Positions 6,183-63,603 of a stretch of 64,000 bases of DNA are shown here, in pieces; position 1 is the first letter of the stretch, and each line of letters opens with the position of its first letter. The translations under genes and the position numbers were made by a program. The stretch is from Dehalococcoidia bacterium (GTDB taxonomy: Bacteria; Chloroflexota; Dehalococcoidia; Lucifugimonadales; UBA3495), in the NCBI GenBank assembly GCA_965203435.1, contig CBDBCU010000003.1, positions 74,918-138,917 of the forward strand, given 5' to 3'. The notes below the pieces were generated by a model. The model saw only the letters and a program-made list of their open reading frames with translations, made no database searches and was not told the origin of the DNA.

Positions 6183-6275
6183 CCTTTCAACAGATTCAAG
6201 GTGACCCTTCAACAAGTTCAGGATGACCTTTCAACAGGTTCAGGGTGACCCTTCAACGAGTTCAGGGTGAGCGGG
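6183..6275. repeat. Family A intergenic repeat: four tandem 22-nt units
   Basis: The units are cctttcaacagattcaaggtga, cccttcaacaagttcaggatga, cctttcaacaggttcagggtga and cccttcaacgagttcagggtga, followed by gcggg. The core is the same as at six other loci in the window. Confidence 0.9.
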
Positions 6276-7859: not shown

Positions 7860-8105
7860 ATGGCTACCTATGGCATCCGGGAGTTTAAGGCCCGGGCCAG
7901 TGAAATTCTCCGCAATGTGGAGGAGTGCGAGGAAGTGGTAATTACCCGGCGGGGGAAACCGTGCGGGAAACTTACCGGCGTGCCGCCATCGGAGGAAAAT
8001 CCGGCTCTGATGGCGCTCCGGGAAAAGTATAGTTCCTTGCCCGATCTGGATTTCGAGGAACTTCAGACCACCATTAAAGGATTCTGGAAAGTCCGCCTTG
8101 TTTGA
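7860..8105 (+). CDS. Phd/YefM-type antitoxin-like protein, orphan copy with no toxin gene directly downstream
   Basis: N-terminal MATYGIREFKARASEILRNVEE.EEVVITRRGKPCGKL is typical of Phd/YefM-family antitoxins. The first ~40 codons are almost identical at DNA level to the gene at 8157. Confidence 0.65.
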   Translation: MATYGIREFKARASEILRNVEECEEVVITRRGKPCGKLTGVPPSEENPALMALREKYSSLPDLDFEELQTTIKGFWKVRLV

Positions 8106-8156: not shown

Positions 8157-8435
8157 ATGGCTACCTATGGCATCCGGGAGTTCAAGGCCCGGGCCAGTGA
8201 AATCCTCCGCAATGTGGAGGAGGGCGAGGAAGTGGTAATTACCCGGCGGGGGAAACCGTGCGGGAAACTTATCGCGCCGCCGGTCGATGCAGGGCCGCAG
8301 CTTTCCCTGGCTACGCTGCGGGGGGCCTTTCGGGACATCCTGCCCGAGGCTACTTGGGAGGATTTTCAGGAAATCAAGAAAATCTGGGAGCCGCGGCCGT
8401 TGCCGGAGGACGACAATGCAGTCCAGGCCGGCTGA
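8157..8435 (+). CDS. Phd/YefM-type antitoxin (partner of VapC)
   Basis: It has the same N-terminal domain as the 7860 gene. The ATG at 8157 matches the paralog start, whereas the ORF-track start at 8115 is an upstream GTG extension. The 3' end overlaps the PIN gene by 20 nt. Confidence 0.7.
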   Translation: MATYGIREFKARASEILRNVEEGEEVVITRRGKPCGKLIAPPVDAGPQLSLATLRGAFRDILPEATWEDFQEIKKIWEPRPLPEDDNAVQAG

Positions 8436-8820
8436 GTTTGTGGTGGACAGCCACGCCCTTTGGTGGTATCTCAAGACGCCGGAACTGCTTTCCGAAACGG
8501 CGGTTTCGGTCTTTGCGCTGGCGGAAGCCGGCAATGCCACTATCGTAATTCCGGCCATTGTCGTGGCTGAGTTTTACTTTCTTTCCGTCAAGCGCGGTCA
8601 GCCCTTTACTCCCGCCGCCCTGTACCATCACCTAGCTCAGGTACGCGGCATCGAGTTATCCGACTTGGGCATCGCGCAACTGGCTTTGCTGGAGCGGTTG
8701 CCGGAGATAGCGGACATCCACGACCGGCTGATTGCGGCGGAGGCGCTGCACCGCAAAGCCCCGCTGCTGACCCGGGATCGCACTCTCCGGGCGTCAACGC
8801 AGTTGGCAACCATTTGGTAG
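8416..8820 (+). CDS. vapC: PIN-domain toxin (VapC family)
   Basis: About 134 aa with conserved acidic positions in VVDSHALWWY, VVAEFYF, IHDRLIAAEA and LLTRDR. The ATG at 8416 overlaps the antitoxin stop. The ORF-track start at 8287 is an out-of-context extension. Confidence 0.75.
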   Translation: MQSRPAEFVVDSHALWWYLKTPELLSETAVSVFALAEAGNATIVIPAIVVAEFYFLSVKRGQPFTPAALYHHLAQVRGIELSDLGIAQLALLERLPEIADIHDRLIAAEALHRKAPLLTRDRTLRASTQLATIW

Positions 8821-10627: not shown

Positions 10628-10755
10628 CCGTCCTTCAACAAGTTCAGGGTGAGCGGAAAGCAAGTTCAGGGTGAGCAGAAAGCAAGTTCAGGGTGAGCGG
10701 AAAGCAAGTTCAGGGCCGTCCTTCAACAAGTTCAGGATGATCGGAAAGTTCGGGG
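10628..10755. repeat. Family A intergenic repeat cluster between MoxR and DUF58 genes
   Basis: ccgtccttcaacaagttcagggtgagcgg, then three tandem ~22-nt units aaagcaagttcagggtgagc(g/a)g, then a second ccgtccttcaacaagttcaggatgatcgg. Confidence 0.9.
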
Positions 10756-22538: not shown

Positions 22539-22675
22539 ATCCTTCAACAAGTTCAGGATGAGCGGACGGCGGGGGCATCCTTACCGGATCAGGATGAGCG
22601 GACGGCGGGGGCATCCTTACCAGATCAGGATGGACAAATGACTCTTTTCCGCTCATCCTGAACTTGTTGAAGGAT
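22539..22675. mobile_element. MITE-like family A element with perfect 27-bp terminal inverted repeats
   Basis: ATCCTTCAACAAGTTCAGGATGAGCGG (22539-22565) and its exact reverse complement (22649-22675) flank two 36-nt direct repeats (caggatgagcggacggcgggggcatccttacc.gat). Confidence 0.7.
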
Positions 22676-35148: not shown

Positions 35149-35514
35149 TTAACCGTCCCCGGCCAGGGCCGCCGCCAGCAGTTTCAGGTTAGCCCCGATG
35201 ACCAGCCGGTCGCCCAGGCGGGTTATCGGGCGGCGCAGCAGGCGCGGCTCCTCCAGGATCAGCCGCCGCAGCTCGGCGGCCGGCAATTCCTGGCCGGCCA
35301 AGCCCAACTTTTTCAGGCTGGGACTGCGCCAGGCAAAGAGTTCCGGCAACGGGGCCAAGGCCGCCAGTTCGTCAAGTTCCTCAGGGCGCAACGGCTCCTG
35401 GAAAAAGTCCCGTGCGGTCACCGTCAGGCCCTGCTGCAAGAGCAACTCTCTCGCTTTGCGGCAGGAACTTCAACGCGGCCACCAGTAGAAAGTAACCGAT
35501 TCGCTTTCGCTCAA
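35149..35514 (-). CDS. ArsC/Spx-family (YffB-like) thiol oxidoreductase with in-frame TGA at the redox Cys: candidate selenoprotein (U-x-x-C)
   Basis: TTG start at 35514, with GGGAGG 6 nt upstream. Translation is MSESESVTFYWWPR-[TGA 35470-35472]-SSCRKARELLLQQGLTVTARDFF..., continuing in frame into the ORF-track ORF 35149-35445. The TGA aligns with the first Cys of the family motif Y.x.x.C-x-T-C-(R/K)-K-A. Total length is 121 codons, normal for the family. Confidence 0.7.
35430..35465 (-). promoter_or_regulatory. Candidate bacterial SECIS hairpin downstream of the TGA at 35470-35472
   Basis: The RNA is CCUGC-C-GCAA-AGC-GAG-[AGAGUUG]-CUC-UUGC-A-GCAGG, about 12 bp. The stem starts 5 nt after the UGA and the apical loop lies about +21 to +27. 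Confidence 0.5.
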
Positions 35515-43582: not shown

Positions 43583-46432
43583 TCAGGCGTCGGCCCTTTT
43601 CACTACCCGGGCCGGCAGGATGTCCAAGCCCGGGGTTTTGGACATGGGGTCGGGTTCGGCAGAGTTCTGCAAATCCACGGCCAACTGGCCGAACAGGATG
43701 GTGGCGGCCACGGAGCCGGCGGGCAGGGCGGCGTTCAGCCGGGCTTGGCCGGCCAGGCGGCCGCGGGGGGTCTGCACTTCCACCGGATCCCCATCAGCTA
43801 TAGCCCAAGCGGCGGCGTCCGCCGGATTCAGTTCCACCCATTCCTCCCGGACAATGCGGTTGCTGCCGCCGGGGCCGTCGGCAAGCACTTGGGTATCCCG
43901 ATCCCGTTGCAGCAGAACCCGGCCCGGCAGGAAACGGGCCGGGTAGCCCTCAACCGGCGTTTCCGGCGCGGCGCGGAATTGGGGAATTATGAAATCGGCT
44001 TTGCCGCCGGGAAAACCATCCCGGTACAGAACCGCCGTGCCGGCTCCGGAGGCGGCGGGCAAAGGCCATTGGAGGCCGCGCTGTTCCGGGCTCAGATAGA
44101 GCATTTGGGTGGGCTGGGGACTTTCCAAGCCGCTGCGGAAAGTCAAGGTCGTTGCCGCTGCCAGCCGTTCATAGGAAAGGCCGGCGTAGTGGGGAACGAC
44201 CTGGGCGATTTCGTCCATAACCGCTGCGGCGTCCGGGTAGTCAAAGCCGGCCGCGCCCAGCCGCTGGGCCAGTTGGCCCAAGAGCCACAATTCCGACCGG
44301 GCTTGCGGGCCGGCGGCCGGCGGCGGGAGAGCCGGCCGGAGGCGCTGAATCCGCCGCTCCAGGTTGGTATAGACGCCGTCCTTTTCGGCAAAGGAAACCC
44401 GCGGCAAAACCACATCGGCAAGTTGCGCCGGGCGGCTGAGAAAGGTATCCATTGCCACCAGAAAGTCCAGGTTTTGCAGGGCGGAAAGGGCGTCCCCCAA
44501 GCGGCCGTTGACCAAGTTATAGCTGTCGCCAATCAGCAGCATAGCCTTGAGGTCGCCGCGGTGGGCGGCCGCAATCATATCCCGCAGTCCCAAGCCCGGA
44601 TAAGTTGGCAAGGCGCAACCCCAGCGCTGTTCCAATTCTTGCCGTACTTGACGGCGGCTGCGGCCGGAGCCGAGGCCGGGCAGGCGTTGCGGCGCGCAGC
44701 CCACATCCCACGCGCCCTGTTCATTAGCCCCCTGCCGCAGGGGGTAGATGCCGCCGCCGGGACGACCCAAATTGCCGGTCAGCAGGGCCAGGTTGACCAG
44801 GGCATTGTCGCAATCCCGCTGCAATTCCGGGATTATGTTGTCCAGGGAATAGCAGAGGGCGGCGTTGGCGGCTTGGCCGTAAAGCCGGGCGGCCCGGGCC
44901 ATTTCCGAGGGGTCAACGCCAGTAGCGGCGGCGATTTCCTCCGGATCAAGGTTGTTCAGGTAATAGTAGAGGGTGGCCGGATCCTCGCAGTAATCCTCGA
45001 CCCACTTTTTGCTGACCAGATCCTGGGTCAGCAGTTCCCGCAGCAGGCCGCCCAGCAGCAGCAGCTCGCTGCCGGGAATCGGCCGCAGCCAGCAGTGGGC
45101 GTAGCGGGTCAATTCCACTTCCCGGGGGTCGATGACGACCAGCGACGCGCCGGCTTTCACCGCCCGCTTGAGGGGGACGCCGGCCACATTGTTATCCTCG
45201 GTCAAGTTACTGTTAAAGACCAGGATAGCGGCGGCCTGTTCCAGCTGCCAGATGGGATTAGTGGCCGCGCCGTAGCCCAGGGCCTGCTCCAGGCCGGCGC
45301 CCAATTCCGGCTGCAAGTTGGAAGTCAAGTCCACATTGTTGGACTGCATGGACACCCGGGCAAACTTCTGGGCCAGGTACAGATCCTCCGTAGTGCCGTT
45401 GGGGGCGGCCAGCAGGCCAAAGGCCGCGCCGCGATATTCGGGCAGCCTTTGGGCAATATAGTCCAGGGCCTCGTCCCAAGAGGCGGGGGTCAGTTGCCCA
45501 TCCCGGCGGATTAGGGGCTGGGTCAGGCGGTCGGGGCGGTTGATGAACTCCAAGCCGAACTTGCCCTTGAAACACGCCTGCCCCCGATTAGCCGGGGAAT
45601 TGTATTCCGGGGTCACCCGAATCAGCTGCCCGTTTCCGTTCAGTTCCAGATTAAGCTGGCAGCCCACCGGGCAGTGGGGGCAAAGCGTCCGTTCCACCCG
45701 CCGGGCCTTTTCCCACTTGTGTTCCCGTTCCACCAGGGCGCCGACCGGACAAACATCAATGCAGGCCCCACAGAACTCGCAGCCGGATTCCAGCAGGGAG
45801 GAGCCAAAGGAAGTGCCGACCAAGGCTTTGCCCGACCGCTCGGTGAAACAGATGGCGTCATCCCCGCGAATTTCCTCGCAGGCCCGGACGCAGCGGCCGC
45901 AGGTGATGCACAGGTTATAATCCCGGTCGTAAAAGGGATCGGCTACTTCCAGGGGAATCTGCTTGTATTTGTAGTTCAGCGGCGATTCCAGTTCCATGCC
46001 CAGGTAGCGGACGGTGTCCTTGAACTCGCAGCGTTCATTTTTGGGGCAGGTAACGCAGCGGTCGTTGACCGACACATGACGCAGGCAAATGTCGGTGGGG
46101 CCGCAGATGTCGACCCGGTGGCAGGTCAGGCAGCCGTTGGGATGTTCGGCAATAAGCATCTGCATTACCGAGCGGCGCAGTTCGTTCACATCCCGGGATT
46201 CGCTGCGGATCCGCATCCCCTCTTGCACCGGCAGGGTGCAGGCGGCGGGATAGCCGCGGCCGCCCTCGACGGCCACGACGCACATTCGGCAGGCGGCATA
46301 GGGTTTCATCCCCGGATGATAGCAGAGATAGGGCATATAGATGCCGGCGTCAATGGCCGCTTCCAGAACCATTTTCCCCGGTTGGGTGGCTACTTCCACG
46401 CCGTCAATGGCGATGGTGATTTGGTCGGCCAT
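43583..46432 (-). CDS. FdhA/NuoG-family iron-sulfur molybdopterin-oxidoreductase-like subunit that lacks the Cys/Sec-His metal-ligand dyad
   Basis: N-terminal 2Fe-2S (CRMC), His-ligated and two ferredoxin-type 4Fe-4S motifs (CITCGRCVRAC, CEFCGACIDVCP), and CPHCPVGC at the start of the MopB domain. A C-terminal molybdopterin-binding-barrel-like region is present. The site after NNVD reads LTSNLQP. Confidence 0.75.
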   Translation of the reverse strand: MADQITIAIDGVEVATQPGKMVLEAAIDAGIYMPYLCYHPGMKPYAACRMCVVAVEGGRGYPAACTLPVQEGMRIRSESRDVNELRRSVMQMLIAEHPNGCLTCHRVDICGPTDICLRHVSVNDRCVTCPKNERCEFKDTVRYLGMELESPLNYKYKQIPLEVADPFYDRDYNLCITCGRCVRACEEIRGDDAICFTERSGKALVGTSFGSSLLESGCEFCGACIDVCPVGALVEREHKWEKARRVERTLCPHCPVGCQLNLELNGNGQLIRVTPEYNSPANRGQACFKGKFGLEFINRPDRLTQPLIRRDGQLTPASWDEALDYIAQRLPEYRGAAFGLLAAPNGTTEDLYLAQKFARVSMQSNNVDLTSNLQPELGAGLEQALGYGAATNPIWQLEQAAAILVFNSNLTEDNNVAGVPLKRAVKAGASLVVIDPREVELTRYAHCWLRPIPGSELLLLGGLLRELLTQDLVSKKWVEDYCEDPATLYYYLNNLDPEEIAAATGVDPSEMARAARLYGQAANAALCYSLDNIIPELQRDCDNALVNLALLTGNLGRPGGGIYPLRQGANEQGAWDVGCAPQRLPGLGSGRSRRQVRQELEQRWGCALPTYPGLGLRDMIAAAHRGDLKAMLLIGDSYNLVNGRLGDALSALQNLDFLVAMDTFLSRPAQLADVVLPRVSFAEKDGVYTNLERRIQRLRPALPPPAAGPQARSELWLLGQLAQRLGAAGFDYPDAAAVMDEIAQVVPHYAGLSYERLAAATTLTFRSGLESPQPTQMLYLSPEQRGLQWPLPAASGAGTAVLYRDGFPGGKADFIIPQFRAAPETPVEGYPARFLPGRVLLQRDRDTQVLADGPGGSNRIVREEWVELNPADAAAWAIADGDPVEVQTPRGRLAGQARLNAALPAGSVAATILFGQLAVDLQNSAEPDPMSKTPGLDILPARVVKRADA

Positions 46433-46491: not shown

Positions 46492-48249
46492 CTAGCGGCG
46501 GCTGAGCCGGGGGGAGTAGTAAGGTTCCCGGCAACGGCCGACGGGACAGCGCTTTTCGTTGATATGCGCCGCAAACTCCTCGGGAAAGTAGCGCAAAGCC
46601 GAGGACACCGGGTTAAAGCCCAACTGCCCATGACCGCACAGGGAACCGGCCTGCATATTTTCCCCCACGGAGCGCATCAGATCCAAATCCTCCGGCCCGC
46701 CCTCCAGCCGGCAAATCCGTTCCAGGGTTTCCAGCAGGTGGCTCATGCCCATTCTACAGGGAAAGCATTTGCCGCAGGATTCGTACTGGCAAAAGGCAAT
46801 CAAAACCCGGGTCAAATCCACCACGCAGGCATCATCGGCGGCGGCGATAATGCCGCCGGAACCCAGGATAGCCCCGGCGTCGCGGAACACCTCAAAATCC
46901 AGGGCCAGGTCGGCCGCCGCCATTCCCAGCACGCCGCCCAGCGGCCCGCCGGTTTGGATGAACTTCAGTTCCCGGCCGCCGGGGGCGCCGCCGGCCATTT
47001 CATACAGGGCTTCGCGCAGGTTGAGGCCCATGGGAACTTCCACCATTCCGGTGTAGTTCAGGGCGCCGCTGAGACAGAGAATCGCCGTGCCGGTACTGCG
47101 CTCGTGGCCGATGCCGGCAAACCATTCGCCGCCTTTGGCGATAATTTCCGGCACATAGGCCAGGGTTTTGACATTGTTGATATTGGTGGGTTTGCCGAAA
47201 ACGCCCACTTGGGCGGGAAAGGGCGGCCGGTAGCGGGGCATCGCCCGGCTGCCCTCGATGGCTTCCATCAAAGCCGTTTCCTCGCCGGAAACATAGGAAT
47301 CTCCGGTCAAAGCCACTTCCAGGTCAAAGCTGAAATTGGAGCCGAAAATGTTGGCCCCCAGCAGGCCCAATTCGTAGGCTTGGGCTACGGCGGCGCGGGC
47401 GCGCTCAATCGGCCCGTCGTGGCCGTGACGGATAAAGATGTAGCCGTAGTTGGCTCCGGTAGCGTAGCCGGCCAGCAGGATGCCCTCTACTACCGTATGG
47501 GGGTCGCTTTCCAGGATGCCCTTGTCGTTGAAAGCCCCCGGATCGCCCTCCTCGCAGTTGCAGAGGATATATTTGTCCGGGGCGTTGGAACCGGCCAGAA
47601 AGCGCCATTTGGTGGCGGCGGGAAAGGCGGCCCCGCCGCGGCCGCGCAGGCCGGAAACATTGACCTGTTCCAGAACTTCGGGCGGCTCCATGGCGGTAAC
47701 GGCCTGATGCAAAGCGCGGTAGCCGCCGTTGGCAATATACTGGTAAATATCCAGGGGGTCGATATGGCCGGCATTCCGCAGGGCAATGCGCTGTTCCCGG
47801 GCGCGCATGGGATGGCGGTTCAAGTCGGGCAAGCTGCCGTTGCCGCCGTCCGCCGCAACAGTATCAGCATCAGCGCCGGCGGCGGCGGTTTCGGGATAAA
47901 GGCAGCCCAATACCCGGTCGGCCAAGGGGCGGCCCTGGACAATATGGGCCTCAACGATTTCCGCCGCCAATTCCGGCGTAACCCGGTCATAAAAAATCCG
48001 AGGCTGGCCGGGCAGCAATACATCGACCAGCGGCTCGGCAAAGCAGAGGCCCAAGCAACCCACCCGGCTGACCGGGGCGGCGATGCCGCGCTGTCGCAAG
48101 GCGGATTCCAGGGCCGCGGCCGTTTCCTCCGCCCCGGCCGCTTGGCCGCACAAGGCGGTACCCACCCGCAGCCAGGGGCGGTCGGCGGCGGTCAAGGATT
48201 GCCAACGCCGGGCGGCTTCGGCCTGAATTTCCGCAAAATCGGAGGGCAT
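46492..48249 (-). CDS. NuoF-family NAD(H)-binding FMN/4Fe-4S flavoprotein with N-terminal thioredoxin-like domain
   Basis: GLRGRGGAAFP, CNCEEGDPGAF, ESCGKCFPCR and the SLCGHGQ motifs. Length is 585 aa. Confidence 0.88.
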   Translation of the reverse strand: MPSDFAEIQAEAARRWQSLTAADRPWLRVGTALCGQAAGAEETAAALESALRQRGIAAPVSRVGCLGLCFAEPLVDVLLPGQPRIFYDRVTPELAAEIVEAHIVQGRPLADRVLGCLYPETAAAGADADTVAADGGNGSLPDLNRHPMRAREQRIALRNAGHIDPLDIYQYIANGGYRALHQAVTAMEPPEVLEQVNVSGLRGRGGAAFPAATKWRFLAGSNAPDKYILCNCEEGDPGAFNDKGILESDPHTVVEGILLAGYATGANYGYIFIRHGHDGPIERARAAVAQAYELGLLGANIFGSNFSFDLEVALTGDSYVSGEETALMEAIEGSRAMPRYRPPFPAQVGVFGKPTNINNVKTLAYVPEIIAKGGEWFAGIGHERSTGTAILCLSGALNYTGMVEVPMGLNLREALYEMAGGAPGGRELKFIQTGGPLGGVLGMAAADLALDFEVFRDAGAILGSGGIIAAADDACVVDLTRVLIAFCQYESCGKCFPCRMGMSHLLETLERICRLEGGPEDLDLMRSVGENMQAGSLCGHGQLGFNPVSSALRYFPEEFAAHINEKRCPVGRCREPYYSPRLSRR

Positions 48250-48258
48250 ATCGGGCGG

Positions 48259-48732
48259 CTACTCCGGGGAATGGCCCAGGGAAAGGGCCACGCGGCCGGC
48301 GGCCTGTTCCGGGGAAAGGCGGCCGACCAGATGATGGTCAATGGACATTACCGGGGCTTGGGCGCAGGCCCCCAGGCAGGTATTGTAGCGCACCGACAGG
48401 CGGCCGTCCGGGGTGTCGCCCTCGTCCTCCAGGCCGGCGGCGGCCAATACGGCTTGGATGACCGGCATAGCCCCGACCAGATGGCAGGACGGCCCCCAGC
48501 AGACTTCGATGCGGCGGGCGCAGGGGGGAATGGTGCGGAAATTGGGATAGAAGGACACCACCGCCCAGACATCGTTGATGGTAGCCCGGTTGAAATCGGC
48601 CACCGCCGCTACCGCTTCCTTGGGGATATAGCCCAGTTCATCCTCCACCGCCAGCAGGGAGGACAGGATGGTAACGGTCGGTTGGGGCTGATGCTGCACG
48701 GCCCGGGCAATTCGCTCTTTCAGCCCATCCAT
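48259..48732 (-). CDS. NuoE-family thioredoxin-like [2Fe-2S] ferredoxin subunit
   Basis: 157 aa with the four-Cys pattern CWGPSCH ... CLGACAQAP. Confidence 0.85.
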   Translation of the reverse strand: MDGLKERIARAVQHQPQPTVTILSSLLAVEDELGYIPKEAVAAVADFNRATINDVWAVVSFYPNFRTIPPCARRIEVCWGPSCHLVGAMPVIQAVLAAAGLEDEGDTPDGRLSVRYNTCLGACAQAPVMSIDHHLVGRLSPEQAAGRVALSLGHSPE

Positions 48733-48899
48733 TTACCGGGGCTCCTTTAGTCTCTGGAAAAGGTTACTGGGAAACCGGCGGCGTTTGGGAAAAGCCGCTA
48801 GCGGCCAATCATCCACCGGTTAAATGTTACCACAGGGGGCGGGAGGGTTTCAACCGGGAATCTCTGCGCGGCCGCCGGGTTTTTCCCTTTCCGGGCCGC

Positions 48900-49538
48900 C
48901 TACTCCCCTTTCAGGTACTGGTTTATTGCCGACTGGAAAATGGGGTAGGGGTGGGCGCCGGTGAACAGCAGATTGCCCACGACAAAGGTGGGAATGCCCC
49001 GGATGCCGTACTGCAAGGCTTCCTGATACTGCTGCATCACCGCGGCCGAATAGGTATGATTTTCCAGGTGTTCCAGCATTTCGGCGGCGTTCAGGGATAC
49101 CGAGCGGGCTACTTCGGCCAGCACCGCCAGCTGCCCCAAGTCCTGCCCGTCCTGCCAATAGGCTTTATAGGCGGCGTGGTGAAACTCCATAAACTTGCCC
49201 TGCCGCTGGGCGTACTCGGTGGCTTCCAGGGCGTAGCGGGTGTTGGGGGTAACGGAGGGCGGCCGCATAATCAAGTTGGCTTCCCGCACGTGAGAGCGGA
49301 TAGGTTCGCTCAGCTCGTCGGCGGTTTCTCCGGCCCGGGGCTGGCGCTGCAAACCCTCCGGGGGCGCATCCGGCCGCAGCAGATAGGCCCGGCCCTCGAC
49401 GGCAATGTTATAGTTCTGACCCAGCTGGTCGACCCGCTCCAGGCCGACATAGCACCAGGGTCAAATGTAATCGTACCAGACGATAACCCGCACCGGGTCA
49501 ACGCCGTTGGCCGCCGAATGCTGCGCCGCTTGGGTCAT
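48900..49538 (-). CDS. DsbA/FrnE-family thiol oxidoreductase with in-frame TGA at the first redox Cys: candidate selenoprotein (U-P-W-C)
   Basis: ATG at 49538, with GGAGGG 8 nt upstream. Translation is MTQAAQHSAANGVDPVRVIVWYDYI-[TGA 49461-49463]-PWCYVGLERVDQLG..., continuing in frame into the ORF-track ORF 48900-49352. That ORF contains the cis-Pro region GIRGIPTFVV. Family consensus at this site is SD..CPWCY.G. Total length is 212 codons. Confidence 0.72.
49425..49458 (-). promoter_or_regulatory. Candidate bacterial SECIS hairpin downstream of the TGA at 49461-49463
   Basis: In the RNA, GUCGGCC-[UGGAGCG]-GGUCGAC forms a 7-bp upper stem (one G-U pair), with a lower CUG/CAG stem. The apical loop lies about +20 to +26 after the UGA. 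Confidence 0.5.
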
Positions 49539-49611
49539 AATTGGATCCCTCCTGCCGCAATAGGGTAATGTTGACATCCAGGAATTGCCGCTGTTTGGCC
49601 GGTTCAGTCAA

Positions 49612-49792
49612 GCCCTATCATTCCGCTCACCCTGAACTTGTTGCAGTCCGCTCATCCTGAACTTGTTGAAGGATGCCTGCCGCAACCGGCCCTATCATTC
49701 CGCTCATCCTGAACTTGTTGAAGGATACCAGCCGCAACAGGCCCTATCATTCCGCTCATCCTGAACTTGTTGAAGGATGGCGGCCGCAACCG
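49612..49792. repeat. Family A repeat cluster: three units of ~52 nt, the first with an extra half copy
   Basis: The unit is gccctatcattccgctcatcctgaacttgttgaaggat...gccgcaac.g, starting at 49612, 49689 and 49741. Confidence 0.9.
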
Positions 49793-49808: not shown

Positions 49809-50570
49809 CTATTCCGCCGCCTGCTCGGCCCAATGGCCGGCTTCCGTTGCCGGTTGCAGGGCGGCCGGGGCCGCCGCCAGGAGCGGCTCCAGTTCGGCCA
49901 GGCCGGAGATGCGGACGCAGTCGGTTACTCCGGTCTGCCAGCCGCCCCGATCCAGCAGGATGGGATAGATGCCGGCGGCCCGGGCCCCCAGGACATCGGA
50001 ACGGGGTTGGTCGCCCACATGAACCGCTTCGCCGGGCCGGGCGGTGGCCCGCTGCAAGGCGGCGGCGAACATTTCCGGAGCCGGCTTTTCCGCCCCCACT
50101 TCGGCGGCGGTCAAGGTAAAATCCAAATAGGGCGTCAAGCCCAAGGCGCCGCAAAGCTGGTCAATATCCCGCCGCAGGTTGGTGATGACCCCCAAGCGGT
50201 AGCCTTGCGCCCGCAGCTGGGCCAGGGCCGGGCGGGTATCGGCAAAGGGGATGAAATCCTTGGGGACGCTGATGGCGATTTGCCAGATTTGCCGGGCCAG
50301 GTCCAGGGATACCGACAGCCCCGCCTTTTCCAGCAGGAGCTGCTCGTAGCGGGCAAAGAAAGCCAGCCGCTCCGCCGCGCTGCGCTGGGCCAGGGGCCGG
50401 ATTTCGTTTTCCCGGTTGAAATAGATGTCGGCGACCGAATAGCCGTAGTTAAGGGCTTCGGCGTCCACGTGCAGGCCCAGCTCCCGGCAGGCGGCCTGCT
50501 GGATCTGATCCAGCGGCGGCCAGAACCGCACCAGGGTATTGTAGAAGTCAAAAAGTACGGCTTTAATCAT
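49809..50570 (-). CDS. HAD-superfamily hydrolase (haloacid dehalogenase-like, DxYxT motif I)
   Basis: MIKAVLFDFYNTLV carries motif I with Tyr at the second acidic position, as in type II haloacid dehalogenases. GVITN and HVGDQPRSDVLGA follow downstream. The start is taken at ATG 50570. Confidence 0.7.
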   Translation of the reverse strand: MIKAVLFDFYNTLVRFWPPLDQIQQAACRELGLHVDAEALNYGYSVADIYFNRENEIRPLAQRSAAERLAFFARYEQLLLEKAGLSVSLDLARQIWQIAISVPKDFIPFADTRPALAQLRAQGYRLGVITNLRRDIDQLCGALGLTPYLDFTLTAAEVGAEKPAPEMFAAALQRATARPGEAVHVGDQPRSDVLGARAAGIYPILLDRGGWQTGVTDCVRISGLAELEPLLAAAPAALQPATEAGHWAEQAAE

Positions 50571-50751
50571 CTGCCCTGCCCAGGCCGCCGGGATGGGGAT
50601 AGGCTTGCGCCGGAAATCCGCCGCCAAGCCGTTAGGCCAAGGCATTGTAGCATATTTGGCGGTTAGGGGCAAAGGGCGGCGGCGGGCGGTTTTGCGGCCG
50701 GAGCGCTATACTAGGGGTCAACGGATTAAAGGGATACCCAAGGGGAAGGCG

Positions 50752-52087: not shown

Positions 52088-53065
52088 TTAGCCGGGCGGC
52101 CAGGGGACGAAATGGCGGCCCACTTCCTCCGGGCTAGCGGCGACGGCTTTTTCCTCGTCCAGTTTCAGGGCCGTGCCCGGGGGAATCCGGCCGCGGAAGC
52201 GCTGGGGATGGGTCAGCTGGGCCAGGATTTCCAGGCCGGTTACAATCCGGGGGCCGGGAATGCTGAAATAGGCGTGGTCAATCAGATAGACTTCCCCGGC
52301 GGCTACCGCCGGCAAGTCGTGCCAACCGGGTTGCGCCGCCAGCCAGGATACTTCCCGCCGCTGCCGCGCCAAGTCTGAGGAACAGAGGTCGATAAAAAGT
52401 TTCTCCGGGGCATAGGCGGTTACATCCCGCCAATCGATGCGGGCGGCCGGGCAACCGGGGCGAAAGGGACCGGCCGCGCCGCCGGCCCGTTCCAGCAAAT
52501 CGGGGATCCAATGGCCGCCCACGACCAGGGGATTGACGCCCTCCAGGGAAAAAGTCTGGGGGCGGCGGACGGATGGCGGCAGAGCATCCGCCACTGCATC
52601 GACCCGTTTTTGCAGGGCGGCGACCAGGGCGTTGGCCTTAGCCCCAGCCCCGGCGGCCGACCCTATCCGGTAGATAGTGTCAAAAATATCGGGCAAGGTG
52701 CGGGGGTTCAGGATCAGAATTTCCGGTTGCGCCGGCATGGCCGCCACGGCCCGGCCGACCGTGGGGGCGTCCACTTCGCAGAAGTAGCACAAATCCTGGG
52801 TCAAAACCAAATCCGGCGGATTAGCGGCCAGGAGTTCCGTATCCAGCACATAGGGGCTTTCCCCGGCGGCCAGGATGCGGCCCATCAAGGCGTCCACTTC
52901 CGCGCTGGACATTTCCGCCACTGCGATGCGGCTGCGGCAGACGATCGGCTTGTCCCGAACGGCCGGCGGGTAGTCGCACAAGTCGGTTACGCCGATCAGG
53001 GCCTCGTCCAAACCCAGGGCGTAGAGAATTTCGGTGCCGCTGGGCAGCAGGGAACAGATTTTCAT
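52088..53065 (-). CDS. BtuF/FepB-type (cluster A) binding-protein-fold protein without an obvious signal peptide; possible cobalamin-binding protein
   Basis: [33 protein letters not shown] matches the periplasmic-binding-protein type 2 N-terminus, but no hydrophobic leader precedes it. Confidence 0.6.
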
Positions 53066-63488: not shown

Positions 63489-63603
63489 GCGGCCTATCAT
63501 TTCGCTCATCCTGAACTTTAAGGTGCGGCCTATCCTTACGCTCATCCTGAACTTTAAGTTGAGGCTTATCATTCCGCTCATCCTGAACTTGTTGAAGGAT
63601 GAA
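63489..63603. repeat. Family A repeat cluster: three tandem 36-nt units upstream of cbiC
   Basis: gcggcctatcatttcgctcatcctgaactttaaggt, gcggcctatccttacgctcatcctgaactttaagtt, gaggcttatcattccgctcatcctgaacttgttgaaggatgaa. Confidence 0.9.

What the first reader, a model, noticed from the sequence alone, without database searches (positions are those of the whole stretch)
48900..49538. DsbA/FrnE-family gene with TGA in place of the first Cys of CPWC: second candidate selenoprotein
- The ORF track begins this gene at an internal TTG (49352).
- Upstream in the same frame, from ATG 49538 (GGAGGG 8 nt upstream), the translation is MTQAAQHSAANGVDPVRVIVWYDYI-TGA-PWCYVGLERVDQL. It matches the DsbA/FrnE signature (h-h-x-D-h-h-C-P-W-C-Y-h-G) with the TGA at 49461-49463 at the nucleophilic Cys.
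- The downstream part contains the expected cis-Pro loop GIRGIPTFVV. Restored length is 212 codons.
- A 7-bp hairpin, GUCGGCC[UGGAGCG]GGUCGAC, places a G-rich apical loop about +20 to +26 after the UGA.
- Two independent genes about 14 kb apart each carry a TGA precisely at the first Cys of a CxxC motif, each with a hairpin at the same distance. That is hard to explain by chance.
- It implies the organism uses selenocysteine in redox proteins other than formate dehydrogenase.
Basis: partly seen in the sequence, partly recalled or inferred. Interest (0 to 1): 0.8.

Follow-up and report, generated by a model that had tools for sequence, protein, structure and literature searches.

The report
DsbA/FrnE-type selenoprotein gene, mis-annotated as truncated
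This is a real gene for a small cytoplasmic thiol-disulfide enzyme whose catalytic cysteine is replaced by selenocysteine, encoded by a UGA "stop" codon; that kind of selenoprotein has been known since 2005, so the find is sound but ordinary, although public databases still list the gene as a truncated fragment.

Summary
On the minus strand, ATG 49538 to TAG 48900 is one frame of 212 codons. Its only interruption is TGA 49463-49461, at the first position of a U-P-W-C redox motif.

With Cys substituted, the protein matches Pfam DSBA end to end (E=8e-34). Its closest solved structure is Deinococcus FrnE.

- **Conservation:** in 80 of 80 species-level Dehalococcoidia/SAR202 genomes the same codon is TGA. 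The peptide is conserved on both sides of it.
- **Cys forms:** more distant homologues carry Cys at that position.
- **RNA constraint:** synonymous sites from just before the UGA to +35 are almost frozen.
- **Second gene:** the ArsC-like gene 14 kb away has a TGA conserved in 6 of 6 relatives, followed by a covarying hairpin.
- **Machinery:** no sel genes lie in the window. Two genomes that carry this orthologue are listed in the literature among the largest bacterial selenoproteomes.

DsbA-like UxxC and ArsC-like selenoproteins were described in 2005-2006. This is therefore a new member of a known kind. Its main practical point is an annotation gap: all 120 listed database entries are N-terminally truncated.

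The parts
48900..49538 (-). Complete FrnE/DsbA-like selenoprotein gene: ATG 49538-49536, Sec codon 26, stop TAG 48902-48900; 212 codons.
   Evidence: sequence and translation. Pfam PF01323 DSBA, E=8.4e-34, residues 18-205 on profile 2-190/191 in one stretch across the TGA; closest solved structure is FrnE 5cnw, E=6.8e-16.
49547..49552 (-). Shine-Dalgarno-like GGAGGG, 8 nt upstream of the ATG.
   Evidence: Read directly from the sequence. Function is inferred.
49461..49463 (-). In-frame TGA, inferred selenocysteine codon (residue 26, first position of U-P-W-C).
   Evidence: TGA at the aligned codon in 80/80 orthologous loci (78 UPWC, 2 UAWC) and in the ~94% identical relatives L081/L082. Cys at this column in the aligned full-length homologues, e.g. 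P0121 and P0177.
49452..49454 (-). Cys29, the only cysteine in the protein; inferred resolving residue of the UxxC motif.
   Evidence: one Cys in the translation. Invariant column C29 in the alignment of Sec and Cys forms.
49428..49448 (-). SECIS-like hairpin. Stem arms are 49448-49442 and 49434-49428; loop UGGAGCG is 49441-49435. An alternative register has bulged C 49443 and loop GGAGCG 49440-49435.
   Evidence: -13.2 kcal/mol; 91.6% of cells paired, with compensatory changes; in the bulged register the six inner pairs hold in all but 1 cell; the core forms in the MFE of 69/81 sequences; published bSECIS criteria, all met.
49428..49465 (-). Block of near-invariant nucleotides (UU-UGA-CCC...GUCGAC) under constraint at synonymous sites.
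   Evidence: Codon 25 is ATT in 67/67 Ile sequences. Codon 31 is GTC in 66/68, codon 32 GGC in 78/81, codon 33 CTG in 79/81, and codon 36 only GTC or GTT. Hobs/Hexp is 0.48 here against 0.93 elsewhere.
48984..48998 (-). Codons 181-185, GIPTF: the cis-proline loop of the thioredoxin fold.
   Evidence: Invariant G181 I182 P183 T184 F185 in 26 sequences. Aligned with GVPFF of FrnE 5cnw.
35149..35514 (-). Second selenoprotein gene of the window (ArsC/Spx family). Start TTG 35514, TGA 35472-35470 in FYWWPR-U-SSCRKA, stop TAA 35151-35149. Hairpin GCGAGAG[AGUUG]CUCUUGC at 35454-35436.
   Evidence: TIGR01617, TIGR00014 and NF041106 hits, all below cut-off; all 62 listed homologues are N-terminally truncated. 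TGA conserved in 6/6 relatives, with stem C-G to U-A compensation.: -20.5 kcal/mol, z=-2.54.

Best explanation
The gene encodes a 212-residue cytoplasmic thiol-disulfide oxidoreductase of the DsbA family, FrnE type. Its nucleophilic residue in the CPWC-type active site is selenocysteine (U26-P-W-C29).

**Inferred mechanism, following the established bacterial pathway.** The ribosome reaches UGA 49463-49461. The mRNA hairpin 12-32 nt further on (core stem UCGG/UCGA, G-rich apical loop UGGAGCG) binds the Sec-specific elongation factor SelB carrying Sec-tRNA(Sec). Sec is inserted instead of terminating, and translation continues to TAG 48900. The finished enzyme would attack substrate disulfides with the selenolate. 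The mixed selenenylsulfide would then be resolved by Cys29.

**Shown here:**
- the intact frame and the family assignment;
- the Sec/Cys correspondence;
- conservation of the UGA and of the hairpin across the clade;
- the RNA-level constraint on synonymous sites.

**Inferred, not shown:** actual Sec insertion, SelB binding, presence of selA/B/C/D in this particular genome, and the physiological substrate.
For: - **Frame and family.** One frame from ATG to TAG, with a single TGA at the first Cys position of CPWC. Pfam DSBA match E=8.4e-34 over profile 2-190/191. FrnE 5cnw is the best solved relative, and its CPWC aligns with the site.
- **Orthologues.** 80/80 loci from different GTDB species (Dehalococcoidia, SAR202, Chloroflexota; 63-81% aa identity) have TGA at that codon, flanked by VRVIVWYDYI and PWCYVGLERVDKL.
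- **Upstream is translated.** Codons 15-18 vary freely at synonymous sites while the amino acids are kept, so the upstream part is read in this frame.
- **Cys forms.** Full-length homologues at 29-53% identity (47% for P0121) have Cys at this column, which meets the Sec/Cys-pair criterion.
- **No conserved internal start.** All 120 listed database homologues are truncated gene calls of 150-184 aa with differing starts.
- **RNA constraint.** Synonymous-site entropy collapses between codons 25 and 37 (0.48 vs 0.93; 0/100,000 random subsets).
- **Hairpin.** It meets the published bSECIS rules: loop 3-9 nt, stem 4-16 bp, G in the first two loop positions, 16-37 nt spacing, MFE <= -7.5 (PMC13188914). 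Observed values are 7 bp, UGGAGCG, 19 nt and -13.2 kcal/mol. Compensatory changes are seen in L078 and L069.
- **Normal stop use.** TGA also ends 9 of 46 long ORFs in the window, so the code is not reassigned wholesale.
- **Second gene.** The window holds a second gene with a conserved TGA and hairpin.
- **Relatives.** L040 and L069 belong to genomes published as Sec-utilising with 49 and 46 selenoproteins.
- **Known family.** The DsbA-like UxxC selenoprotein family is established.
Against: - No selA, selB, selD or tRNA-Sec lies in the window or in about 0.97 Mb of related flanks. The machinery is therefore not shown for this genome.
- No Rfam family matches the hairpin.
- RNAalifold on the full 75-column alignment does not recover the hairpin. 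On trimmed alignments it gives only a weak consensus (-3.1 kcal/mol) in the bulged register.
- The short hairpin alone is no more stable than shuffled sequence (z=-0.47).
- Covariation is sparse because the element is almost invariant: 3 double-change cells.
- No protein-level evidence of Sec.
- NCBIfam has no model that this protein passes.
Confidence: 0.9

Rival explanations
1. The TGA is a genuine stop. The locus yields a 25-residue peptide and, from an internal start, an N-terminally truncated DsbA-like protein without the redox motif, as public databases annotate it.
For: All 120 listed database homologues are called this way, at 150-184 aa. TGA is used as an ordinary stop elsewhere in the window.
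Against: - In the window, the first start codon after the TGA is TTG 49352, 37 codons downstream. The product would lack strand beta1, the active site and helix alpha1.
- The called starts differ between relatives, so no internal start is conserved.
- The 10 residues before the TGA and the 13 after it are the best-conserved part of the protein. They are kept in frame in 80/80 species.
- Pfam aligns one domain across the TGA.
Confidence: 0.03
2. The UGA is read through, but as something other than selenocysteine (Trp, Cys or Gly via a suppressor or near-cognate tRNA). The conserved hairpin only stimulates read-through.
For: Sec machinery was not found in the window. One database entry (P0172) was translated with Trp at this position. 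The context UGA-C is conserved.
Against: - The position is the catalytic Cys of CPWC, where only Cys or Sec is functional. Homologues have Cys there.
- Hairpin geometry and the G-rich loop match the SelB-dependent bSECIS model.
- Relatives with this gene are documented Sec users with dozens of selenoproteins.
- P0172 diverges after residue ~100 and looks like a gene call made under a TGA=Trp table.
Confidence: 0.05
3. The gene is a pseudogene inactivated by a nonsense mutation, or the TGA is a sequencing or assembly error.
For: A single in-frame stop is what a fresh nonsense mutation would look like in one sequence.
Against: The identical codon is present in 80 independent species-level assemblies plus L081 and L082. 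There are no further stops or frameshifts, and protein identity is 63-98%.
Confidence: 0.01

Closest known systems
DsbA-like selenoprotein, 'form 1' (PF01323 / COG2761, UxxC). First reported in the Sargasso Sea selenoproteome in 2005 (PMC1088965). Also listed in PMC1794560, PMC5029168 and the 2026 review PMC13188914.
   Same: Same Pfam domain. Same UxxC motif, with Sec at the first Cys of the DsbA/FrnE active site. An in-frame UGA followed directly by a bacterial-type SECIS hairpin. Cys-containing homologues are widespread.
   Different: I could not fetch the published example sequences (AACY01178397, NIP15863.1), so orthology to them is not shown. The clade studied here is confined to Dehalococcoidia/SAR202 among the 80 loci retrieved. 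It has an almost invariant SECIS and a conserved HAD-hydrolase neighbour.
FrnE of Deinococcus radiodurans (DR_0659; PDB 5cnw), a cytoplasmic DsbA-family disulfide reductase/isomerase.
   Same: Best solved-structure match (E=6.8e-16, residues 13-196). The CPWC motif aligns with UPWC. There is a cis-Pro loop and no signal peptide (PMC8945050).
   Different: FrnE uses Cys, not Sec. It carries a C-terminal CXXXXC tail used to regenerate the active site. The window protein ends at residue 212 with no tail and has only one Cys, so its re-reduction route must differ, as in the tail-less FrnE of S. roseofulvus and D. maricopensis.
Bacterial SECIS consensus (bSECISearch model; E. coli fdhF as the type example).
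   Same: A hairpin inside the coding region, directly after the UGA. 19-nt spacing to a small apical loop with G at loop position 2 (or GG at positions 1-2 in the bulged register). MFE is below -7.5 kcal/mol.
   Different: No sequence similarity to the E. coli elements, and no Rfam model matches it. The two bases before the UGA are invariably UU, which is not part of the published model.
ArsC-like / arsenate-reductase selenoproteins (UxxS in 2005; 'ArsC-like' in 2006; NCBIfam NF041106 'ArsC family (seleno)protein').
   Same: The window's second gene (35514-35149) has Sec at the catalytic Cys position of an ArsC/Spx-fold protein, with a downstream hairpin.
   Different: The motif here is U-S-S-C (Spx-like CxxC) rather than UxxS. 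It scores below the NF041106 cut-off (28.1 vs 85 bits).

Membership tests
Bacterial selenoprotein gene (Sec-UGA plus bSECIS) | In-frame UGA aligned with a conserved, catalytic Cys in homologues (Sec/Cys pair). | tested here: met
   the aligned full-length homologues (P0121, P0132, P0137, P0177 and others) have C at the column of the TGA, except P0172 (W). D23, P27 and C29 are invariant.
Bacterial selenoprotein gene (Sec-UGA plus bSECIS) | TGA-containing orthologues in other organisms, with coding conservation on both sides. | tested here: met
   80/80 species-level genomes; upstream codons show synonymous variation with conserved amino acids.
Bacterial selenoprotein gene (Sec-UGA plus bSECIS) | bSECIS model: apical loop 3-9 nt; upper stem 4-16 bp; G in the first two loop positions; 16-37 nt between UGA and loop; MFE <= -7.5 kcal/mol (PMC13188914, Fig. 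2 legend). | tested here: met
   The loop is UGGAGCG (7 nt), or GGAGCG in the bulged register. The stem is 7 bp, the spacing 19 nt, and the MFE -13.2 kcal/mol. The loop is UGGAR[C/A]G in all 81 sequences.
Bacterial selenoprotein gene (Sec-UGA plus bSECIS) | selA, selB, selD and tRNA-Sec present in the same genome. | not testable with these tools
   None in the window or in the flanks of 88 related loci. Indirect support: the genomes of L040 (UBA1141) and L069 (10f4566d) are listed as having the Sec system, with 49 and 46 selenoproteins (PMC13326102).
Bacterial selenoprotein gene (Sec-UGA plus bSECIS) | Selenium actually incorporated at the UGA position. | not testable with these tools
   Needs 75Se labelling or mass spectrometry.
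DsbA family, FrnE subfamily | DSBA-like thioredoxin domain above Pfam's gathering score, full length. | tested here: met
   PF01323, 117.5 bits (cut-off 25.6), profile 2-190/191.
DsbA family, FrnE subfamily | Active-site motif CP(W/F)C near the N-terminus. | tested here: met
   U-P-W-C at residues 26-29, aligned with CPWC of FrnE 5cnw. Two relatives have U-A-W-C.
DsbA family, FrnE subfamily | cis-Pro loop facing the active site. | tested here: met
   GIPTF is invariant and aligned with GVPFF of FrnE. This rests on sequence alignment only.
DsbA family, FrnE subfamily | Cytoplasmic: no signal peptide or lipobox. | tested here: met
   By inspection. The 13 polar N-terminal residues run straight into strand beta1 (VRVIVWYDY), with no hydrophobic leader. 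No signal-peptide predictor was available.
DsbA family, FrnE subfamily | C-terminal CXXXXC tail (present in many FrnE proteins and functionally important in D. radiodurans FrnE). | tested here: not met
   The protein ends ...FQSAINQYLKGE and has one Cys in all. The tail is also absent from S. roseofulvus and D. maricopensis FrnE, so it is not strictly defining.
DsbA family, FrnE subfamily | Thioredoxin fold with inserted helical domain (3D). | not tested
NCBIfam NF041057, Rcas_1661 family thioredoxin-like (seleno)lipoprotein | Score above the curated cut-off over the whole model. | tested here: not met
   53.8 bits against a cut-off of 190. Only residues 99-207 match, on profile 138-246. Not a member.

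The most novel reading that the evidence does not exclude
In Dehalococcoidia/SAR202 this FrnE-type protein may be an obligate selenoenzyme with a dedicated role, not a generic redox housekeeper. Four observations point that way:
- All 80 species retrieved keep UGA, with no reversion to Cys.
- The SECIS is almost invariant, down to a bulged C and a fixed UU before the UGA.
- A HAD-family hydrolase sits directly upstream on the same strand in 74/80 genomes.
- A NuoE/NuoF/NuoG-like module follows in about 35/80.

If the HAD enzyme or the flavoprotein module is its redox partner or substrate system, this would be a new selenium-dependent pathway in one of the ocean's most abundant bacterial groups.
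Probability: 0.12. Interest if true: 0.45.

Novelty: new member of a known kind. Interest (0 to 1): 0.25.

Why it matters
**Biology.** The finding adds little that is new. DsbA-like and ArsC-like selenoproteins, and the selenoprotein richness of some Dehalococcoidia, are already in the literature.

**Annotation.** The practical value lies here.
- All 120 listed database homologues of the DsbA-like gene are N-terminal truncations that lack the active site. So are all 62 listed homologues of the ArsC-like gene. These include entries from NCBI-annotated complete genomes.
- Function prediction and selenoproteome counts for this abundant marine and subsurface clade are therefore biased.

**SECIS model.** The 81-sequence alignment gives a clean, clade-specific SECIS element. 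It could seed a covariance model for finding further selenoprotein genes in Chloroflexota.

Tried and rejected
- **Rfam.** The whole window at gathering threshold gave only tRNA-Gln. The region at E<=10 gave one chance miRNA hit. No SECIS family applies.
- **RNAalifold.** On the 75-column alignment it returned an implausible weak structure (-5.1 kcal/mol). Trimmed alignments gave the bulged-C register at only -3.1 kcal/mol. This is because the outer pairs fail in about a quarter of the sequences.
- **Single-sequence folding.** The short hairpin is not better than shuffles (z=-0.47). The extended lower stem (UUUGACCC/GGGUCAGA, z about -3) is specific to this sequence and not conserved. I rejected it as part of the element.
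- **Sec machinery search.** ARAGORN on the window and all loci, plus motif scans for SelB (GHxDHGKT) and SelD (G[C/U]GCK), found nothing credible.
- **Metagenome scan.** The scan with the ArsC-like protein found no relative. It was replaced by a protein search and contig look-ups.
- **Supplements.** The BSepDB paper has no supplementary files held as text. I could not confirm that this exact gene is among the 49 and 46 counted.
- **Other selenoprotein genes.** A systematic scan of all window genes for TGA-extended frames found only the DsbA-like and ArsC-like genes credible.
- **Code reassignment.** A wholesale TGA reassignment was rejected, because TGA ends 9 of 46 long ORFs.

Full report
**1. 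What is in the sequence**

On the minus strand, ATG 49538-49536 opens a frame that runs to TAG 48902-48900. GGAGGG lies at 49552-49547, 8 nt upstream of the ATG. The frame is 212 codons long and has one interruption, TGA at 49463-49461.

The translation around the stop is VRVIVWYDYI-TGA-PWCYVGLERVDQL. The cis-Pro loop GIRGIPTFVV is present. Apart from the TGA position, the protein has a single cysteine, Cys29.

With Cys substituted for the stop, the protein matches Pfam DSBA (PF01323). The score is 117.5 bits, E=8.4e-34, in one stretch covering profile positions 2-190 of 191, so the domain spans the TGA. The closest solved structure is FrnE of Deinococcus radiodurans (5cnw, E=6.8e-16). Its CPWC aligns with the U-P-W-C.

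**2. Comparative evidence for recoding**

A protein search returned 435 homologues. All 120 listed are 150-184 aa and cover only 71-85% of the query. They are gene calls that begin after the TGA, at varying positions.

A scan of one genome per GTDB species found 175 relatives and returned the best 80. All 80 are MAGs labelled Dehalococcoidia, SAR202 or Chloroflexota (one labelled only 'uncultured bacterium'), at 63-81% amino-acid identity.
- In all 80 the codon aligned with 49463-49461 is TGA: 78 with U-P-W-C and 2 with U-A-W-C.
- The flanking peptides are the most conserved part of the protein.
- Two metagenome contigs about 94% identical to the window in DNA also keep the TGA.
- Codons 15-18, upstream of the TGA, vary freely at synonymous sites while the amino acids are kept. 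That region is therefore translated in this frame.

An exhaustive HMMER search with the post-TGA part found full-length homologues of about 200-220 aa at 29-53% identity in the set aligned. Cys stands at the TGA column in them, for example P0121 SDYICPWCYVGLARVDKL and P0177 VWYDYICPWCYVGLDRLDRL. This is the classical Sec/Cys pair.

TGA also terminates 9 of 46 long ORFs in the window, against TAG 24 and TAA 13. The code is therefore not reassigned.

**3. The RNA element**

In a codon alignment of 81 sequences, synonymous-site entropy drops sharply from the codon before the UGA to codon 36:

| Codon | Residue | Codon usage |
|---|---|---|
| 25 | Ile | ATT in 67/67 (GTT in the Val-25 sequences) |
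| 31 | Val | GTC in 66/68 |
| 32 | Gly | GGC in 78/81 |
| 33 | Leu | CTG in 79/81 |
| 36 | Val | GTC or GTT only |

- The same amino acids elsewhere in the gene use three to six codons.
- The mean observed/expected entropy is 0.48 in codons 25-37 against 0.93 elsewhere.
- This is the lowest contiguous window in the gene, and 0 of 100,000 random codon subsets are as low.

Its loop occupies nucleotides 20-26 after the UGA.
- On the 81-sequence alignment, 91.6% of cells pair in that register. The four core pairs UCGG/UCGA hold in every distinct sequence.
- L078 changes C-G to G-C at the cost of an Asp-to-His substitution.
- L069 and L078 change C-G to U-A.
- Six sequences change G-C to G-U.

A register with one bulged C (C31-G40 and U32-R39, loop GGARMG) removes the 22 C-A mismatches of the closing pair. 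It leaves a single unpaired cell in the six inner pairs. Both registers share the core.

The published bSECIS rules are: loop 3-9 nt, stem 4-16 bp, G in the first two loop positions, 16-37 nt spacing, and MFE <= -7.5 kcal/mol (PMC13188914). All are met. The observed values are a 7-bp stem, 19-nt spacing and -13.2 kcal/mol.

Caveats:
- The short hairpin alone is no more stable than shuffled sequence (z=-0.47).
- The longer stem that includes the UGA in this window is not conserved.
- Rfam has no matching family.
- RNAalifold recovers the element only weakly.

**4. The second gene**

A second gene lies 13,991 bp away, from TTG 35514 to TAA 35149 on the minus strand, with GGGAGG 6 nt upstream of the start. 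It encodes an ArsC/Spx-fold protein with TGA 35472-35470 in FYWWPR-U-SSCRKA.
- All 62 listed homologues are truncated calls.
- In 6 of 6 relatives whose DNA I fetched, the TGA is at the same codon.
- The downstream hairpin GYRAGAG[AGUUG]CUCUURC shows C-G to U-A compensation.
- In chromosome OY730415.1 the two genes lie about 10 kb apart, as in the window.

A systematic scan found no further credible TGA-extended gene in the window.

**5. Sec machinery**

The window has only tRNA-Gln and no SelA/SelB/SelD-like motifs. The flanks of the related loci have none either. The machinery therefore cannot be shown for this genome.

The literature fills part of the gap. The BSepDB paper (PMC13326102) accepts a species only if it has at least two Sec-pathway genes. 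It lists Dehalococcoidia bacterium UBA1141 (49 selenoprotein genes) and isolate 10f4566d-ab44-49ae-b774-fc9f760c6436 (46) among the largest bacterial selenoproteomes. These are the genomes of my loci L040 and L069, and both carry the TGA orthologue.

**6. Mechanism**

The best-supported reading is SelB-dependent insertion of Sec at codon 26, directed by the hairpin 12-32 nt downstream. The product would be a cytoplasmic FrnE-type thiol-disulfide oxidoreductase with a selenolate nucleophile and Cys29 as the resolving residue.

The protein has no signal peptide. It also lacks the C-terminal CXXXXC tail that regenerates D. radiodurans FrnE (PMC8945050). Its reductant must therefore differ.

Rivals are poorly supported for the reasons given in sections 2 and 3. 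They are a true stop with a truncated product, read-through with another amino acid, and a pseudogene.

**7. Comparison with what is known, and novelty**

The published record is as follows:
- 'DsbA-like protein' (COG2761, UxxC) and 'arsenate reductase' (UxxS) selenoproteins were reported from the Sargasso Sea in 2005 (PMC1088965).
- 'DsbA-like' and 'ArsC-like' are among the 25 bacterial selenoprotein families of 2006 (PMC1794560).
- DsbA-like selenoproteins were counted in 41 organisms in 2016 (PMC5029168).
- They appear as 'DsbA-like protein form 1, PF01323, UxxC' in a 2026 review.

The finding is therefore a new member of a known kind, in a clade already recorded as rich in selenoproteins. 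What remains notable is the annotation gap and the unusually invariant SECIS.

**8. Context**

A HAD-type hydrolase (49809-50672) lies directly upstream on the same strand in 74/80 loci. A NuoE/NuoF/NuoG-like module follows downstream in about 35/80. Whether these genes are functionally linked to the selenoprotein is unknown.

Noticed in passing
window 35149-35514 (-): Second selenoprotein gene: ArsC/Spx-fold, FYWWPR-TGA-SSCRKA, TGA at 35472-35470, hairpin at 35454-35436. The TGA is conserved in 6/6 relatives, with a compensatory stem change. All 62 listed database homologues are truncated calls.
   Followed up: yes
window 49647-49792, plus copies in clusters near 6258, 10640-10745, 22549-22665, 25560, 49622-49768, 53119 and 63501-63590: Dispersed intergenic repeat AAGTTCAGGATGAGCGGA: 17 copies at <=3 mismatches, against 0.02 expected. 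It includes a 52-nt x 2.8 tandem array directly upstream of the DsbA-like gene, between it and the HAD hydrolase gene. It looks like a REP/MITE-like element; its role is unknown.
   Followed up: partly
window 43583-46432 (-), with 46492-48249 and 48259-48732: The 949-aa 'formate dehydrogenase alpha'-like protein downstream lacks the Cys/Sec-His active-site motif (it reads ...SNNVDLTSNLQPE...). It scores below the NCBIfam Fdh-alpha and NuoG cut-offs. It is more likely a NuoG-like subunit of a NuoE/F/G-type module than a real FDH. The window therefore shows no Sec-containing FDH.
   Followed up: partly
window 49809-50672 (-); loci L001-L080, about 100-250 nt upstream of the match: A HAD-family IA hydrolase (TIGR02253/TIGR02252-like, below cut-off) is the immediate same-strand upstream neighbour of the selenoprotein gene in 74 of 80 species. 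This gene pair is conserved across the whole clade.
   Followed up: partly
database entries P0001-P0120 and P0271-P0332; P0172: Every listed public protein entry for both selenoprotein genes is an N-terminal truncation, including entries from NCBI-annotated complete genomes. One entry (P0172) carries Trp at the TGA position, presumably from a gene call made under a TGA=Trp table.
   Followed up: partly
whole window: Stop-codon usage of ORFs >=100 aa is TAG 24, TAA 13, TGA 9. TGA is the rarest stop although the DNA is 62.7% G+C.
   Followed up: no
proteins P0123, P0126, P0136, P0141 and others: Long proteins of 566-1196 aa contain 3-5 separate matches to the C-terminal half of this DsbA-like domain. 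These are multi-repeat architectures of unknown nature.
   Followed up: no
window 7860-8105 (+) and the following ~330 nt: A Phd/YefM-like antitoxin ORF (MATYGIREFKARASEILRNVEECEEVVITRRGKP...) is followed in the same frame by a near-identical second copy. Downstream is an ORF (8287-8820) that I guess, from its sequence alone and without a family search, to be PIN-domain-like. This may be a tandemly duplicated toxin-antitoxin locus.
   Followed up: no
L081 10541-11302, compared with window 48733-48899: The ~94% identical relatives (L081, L082) carry an extra 253-aa gene with no Pfam hit between the DsbA-like gene and the NuoE-like gene. The window has only a 167-nt spacer there, with a promoter-like TTGAAA-18-TAACAT at 48853-48824.
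   Followed up: no
window 52088-53065 (-): A BtuF-like periplasmic-binding-protein homologue (PF01497 in the orthologue of L081) lies next to a cobalamin-biosynthesis cluster and contains a CYFC motif. A 2026 review lists a CxxU selenoprotein form of BtuF. Here the frame is uninterrupted, so this would be a Cys form. Whether the motif corresponds was not checked.
   Followed up: no
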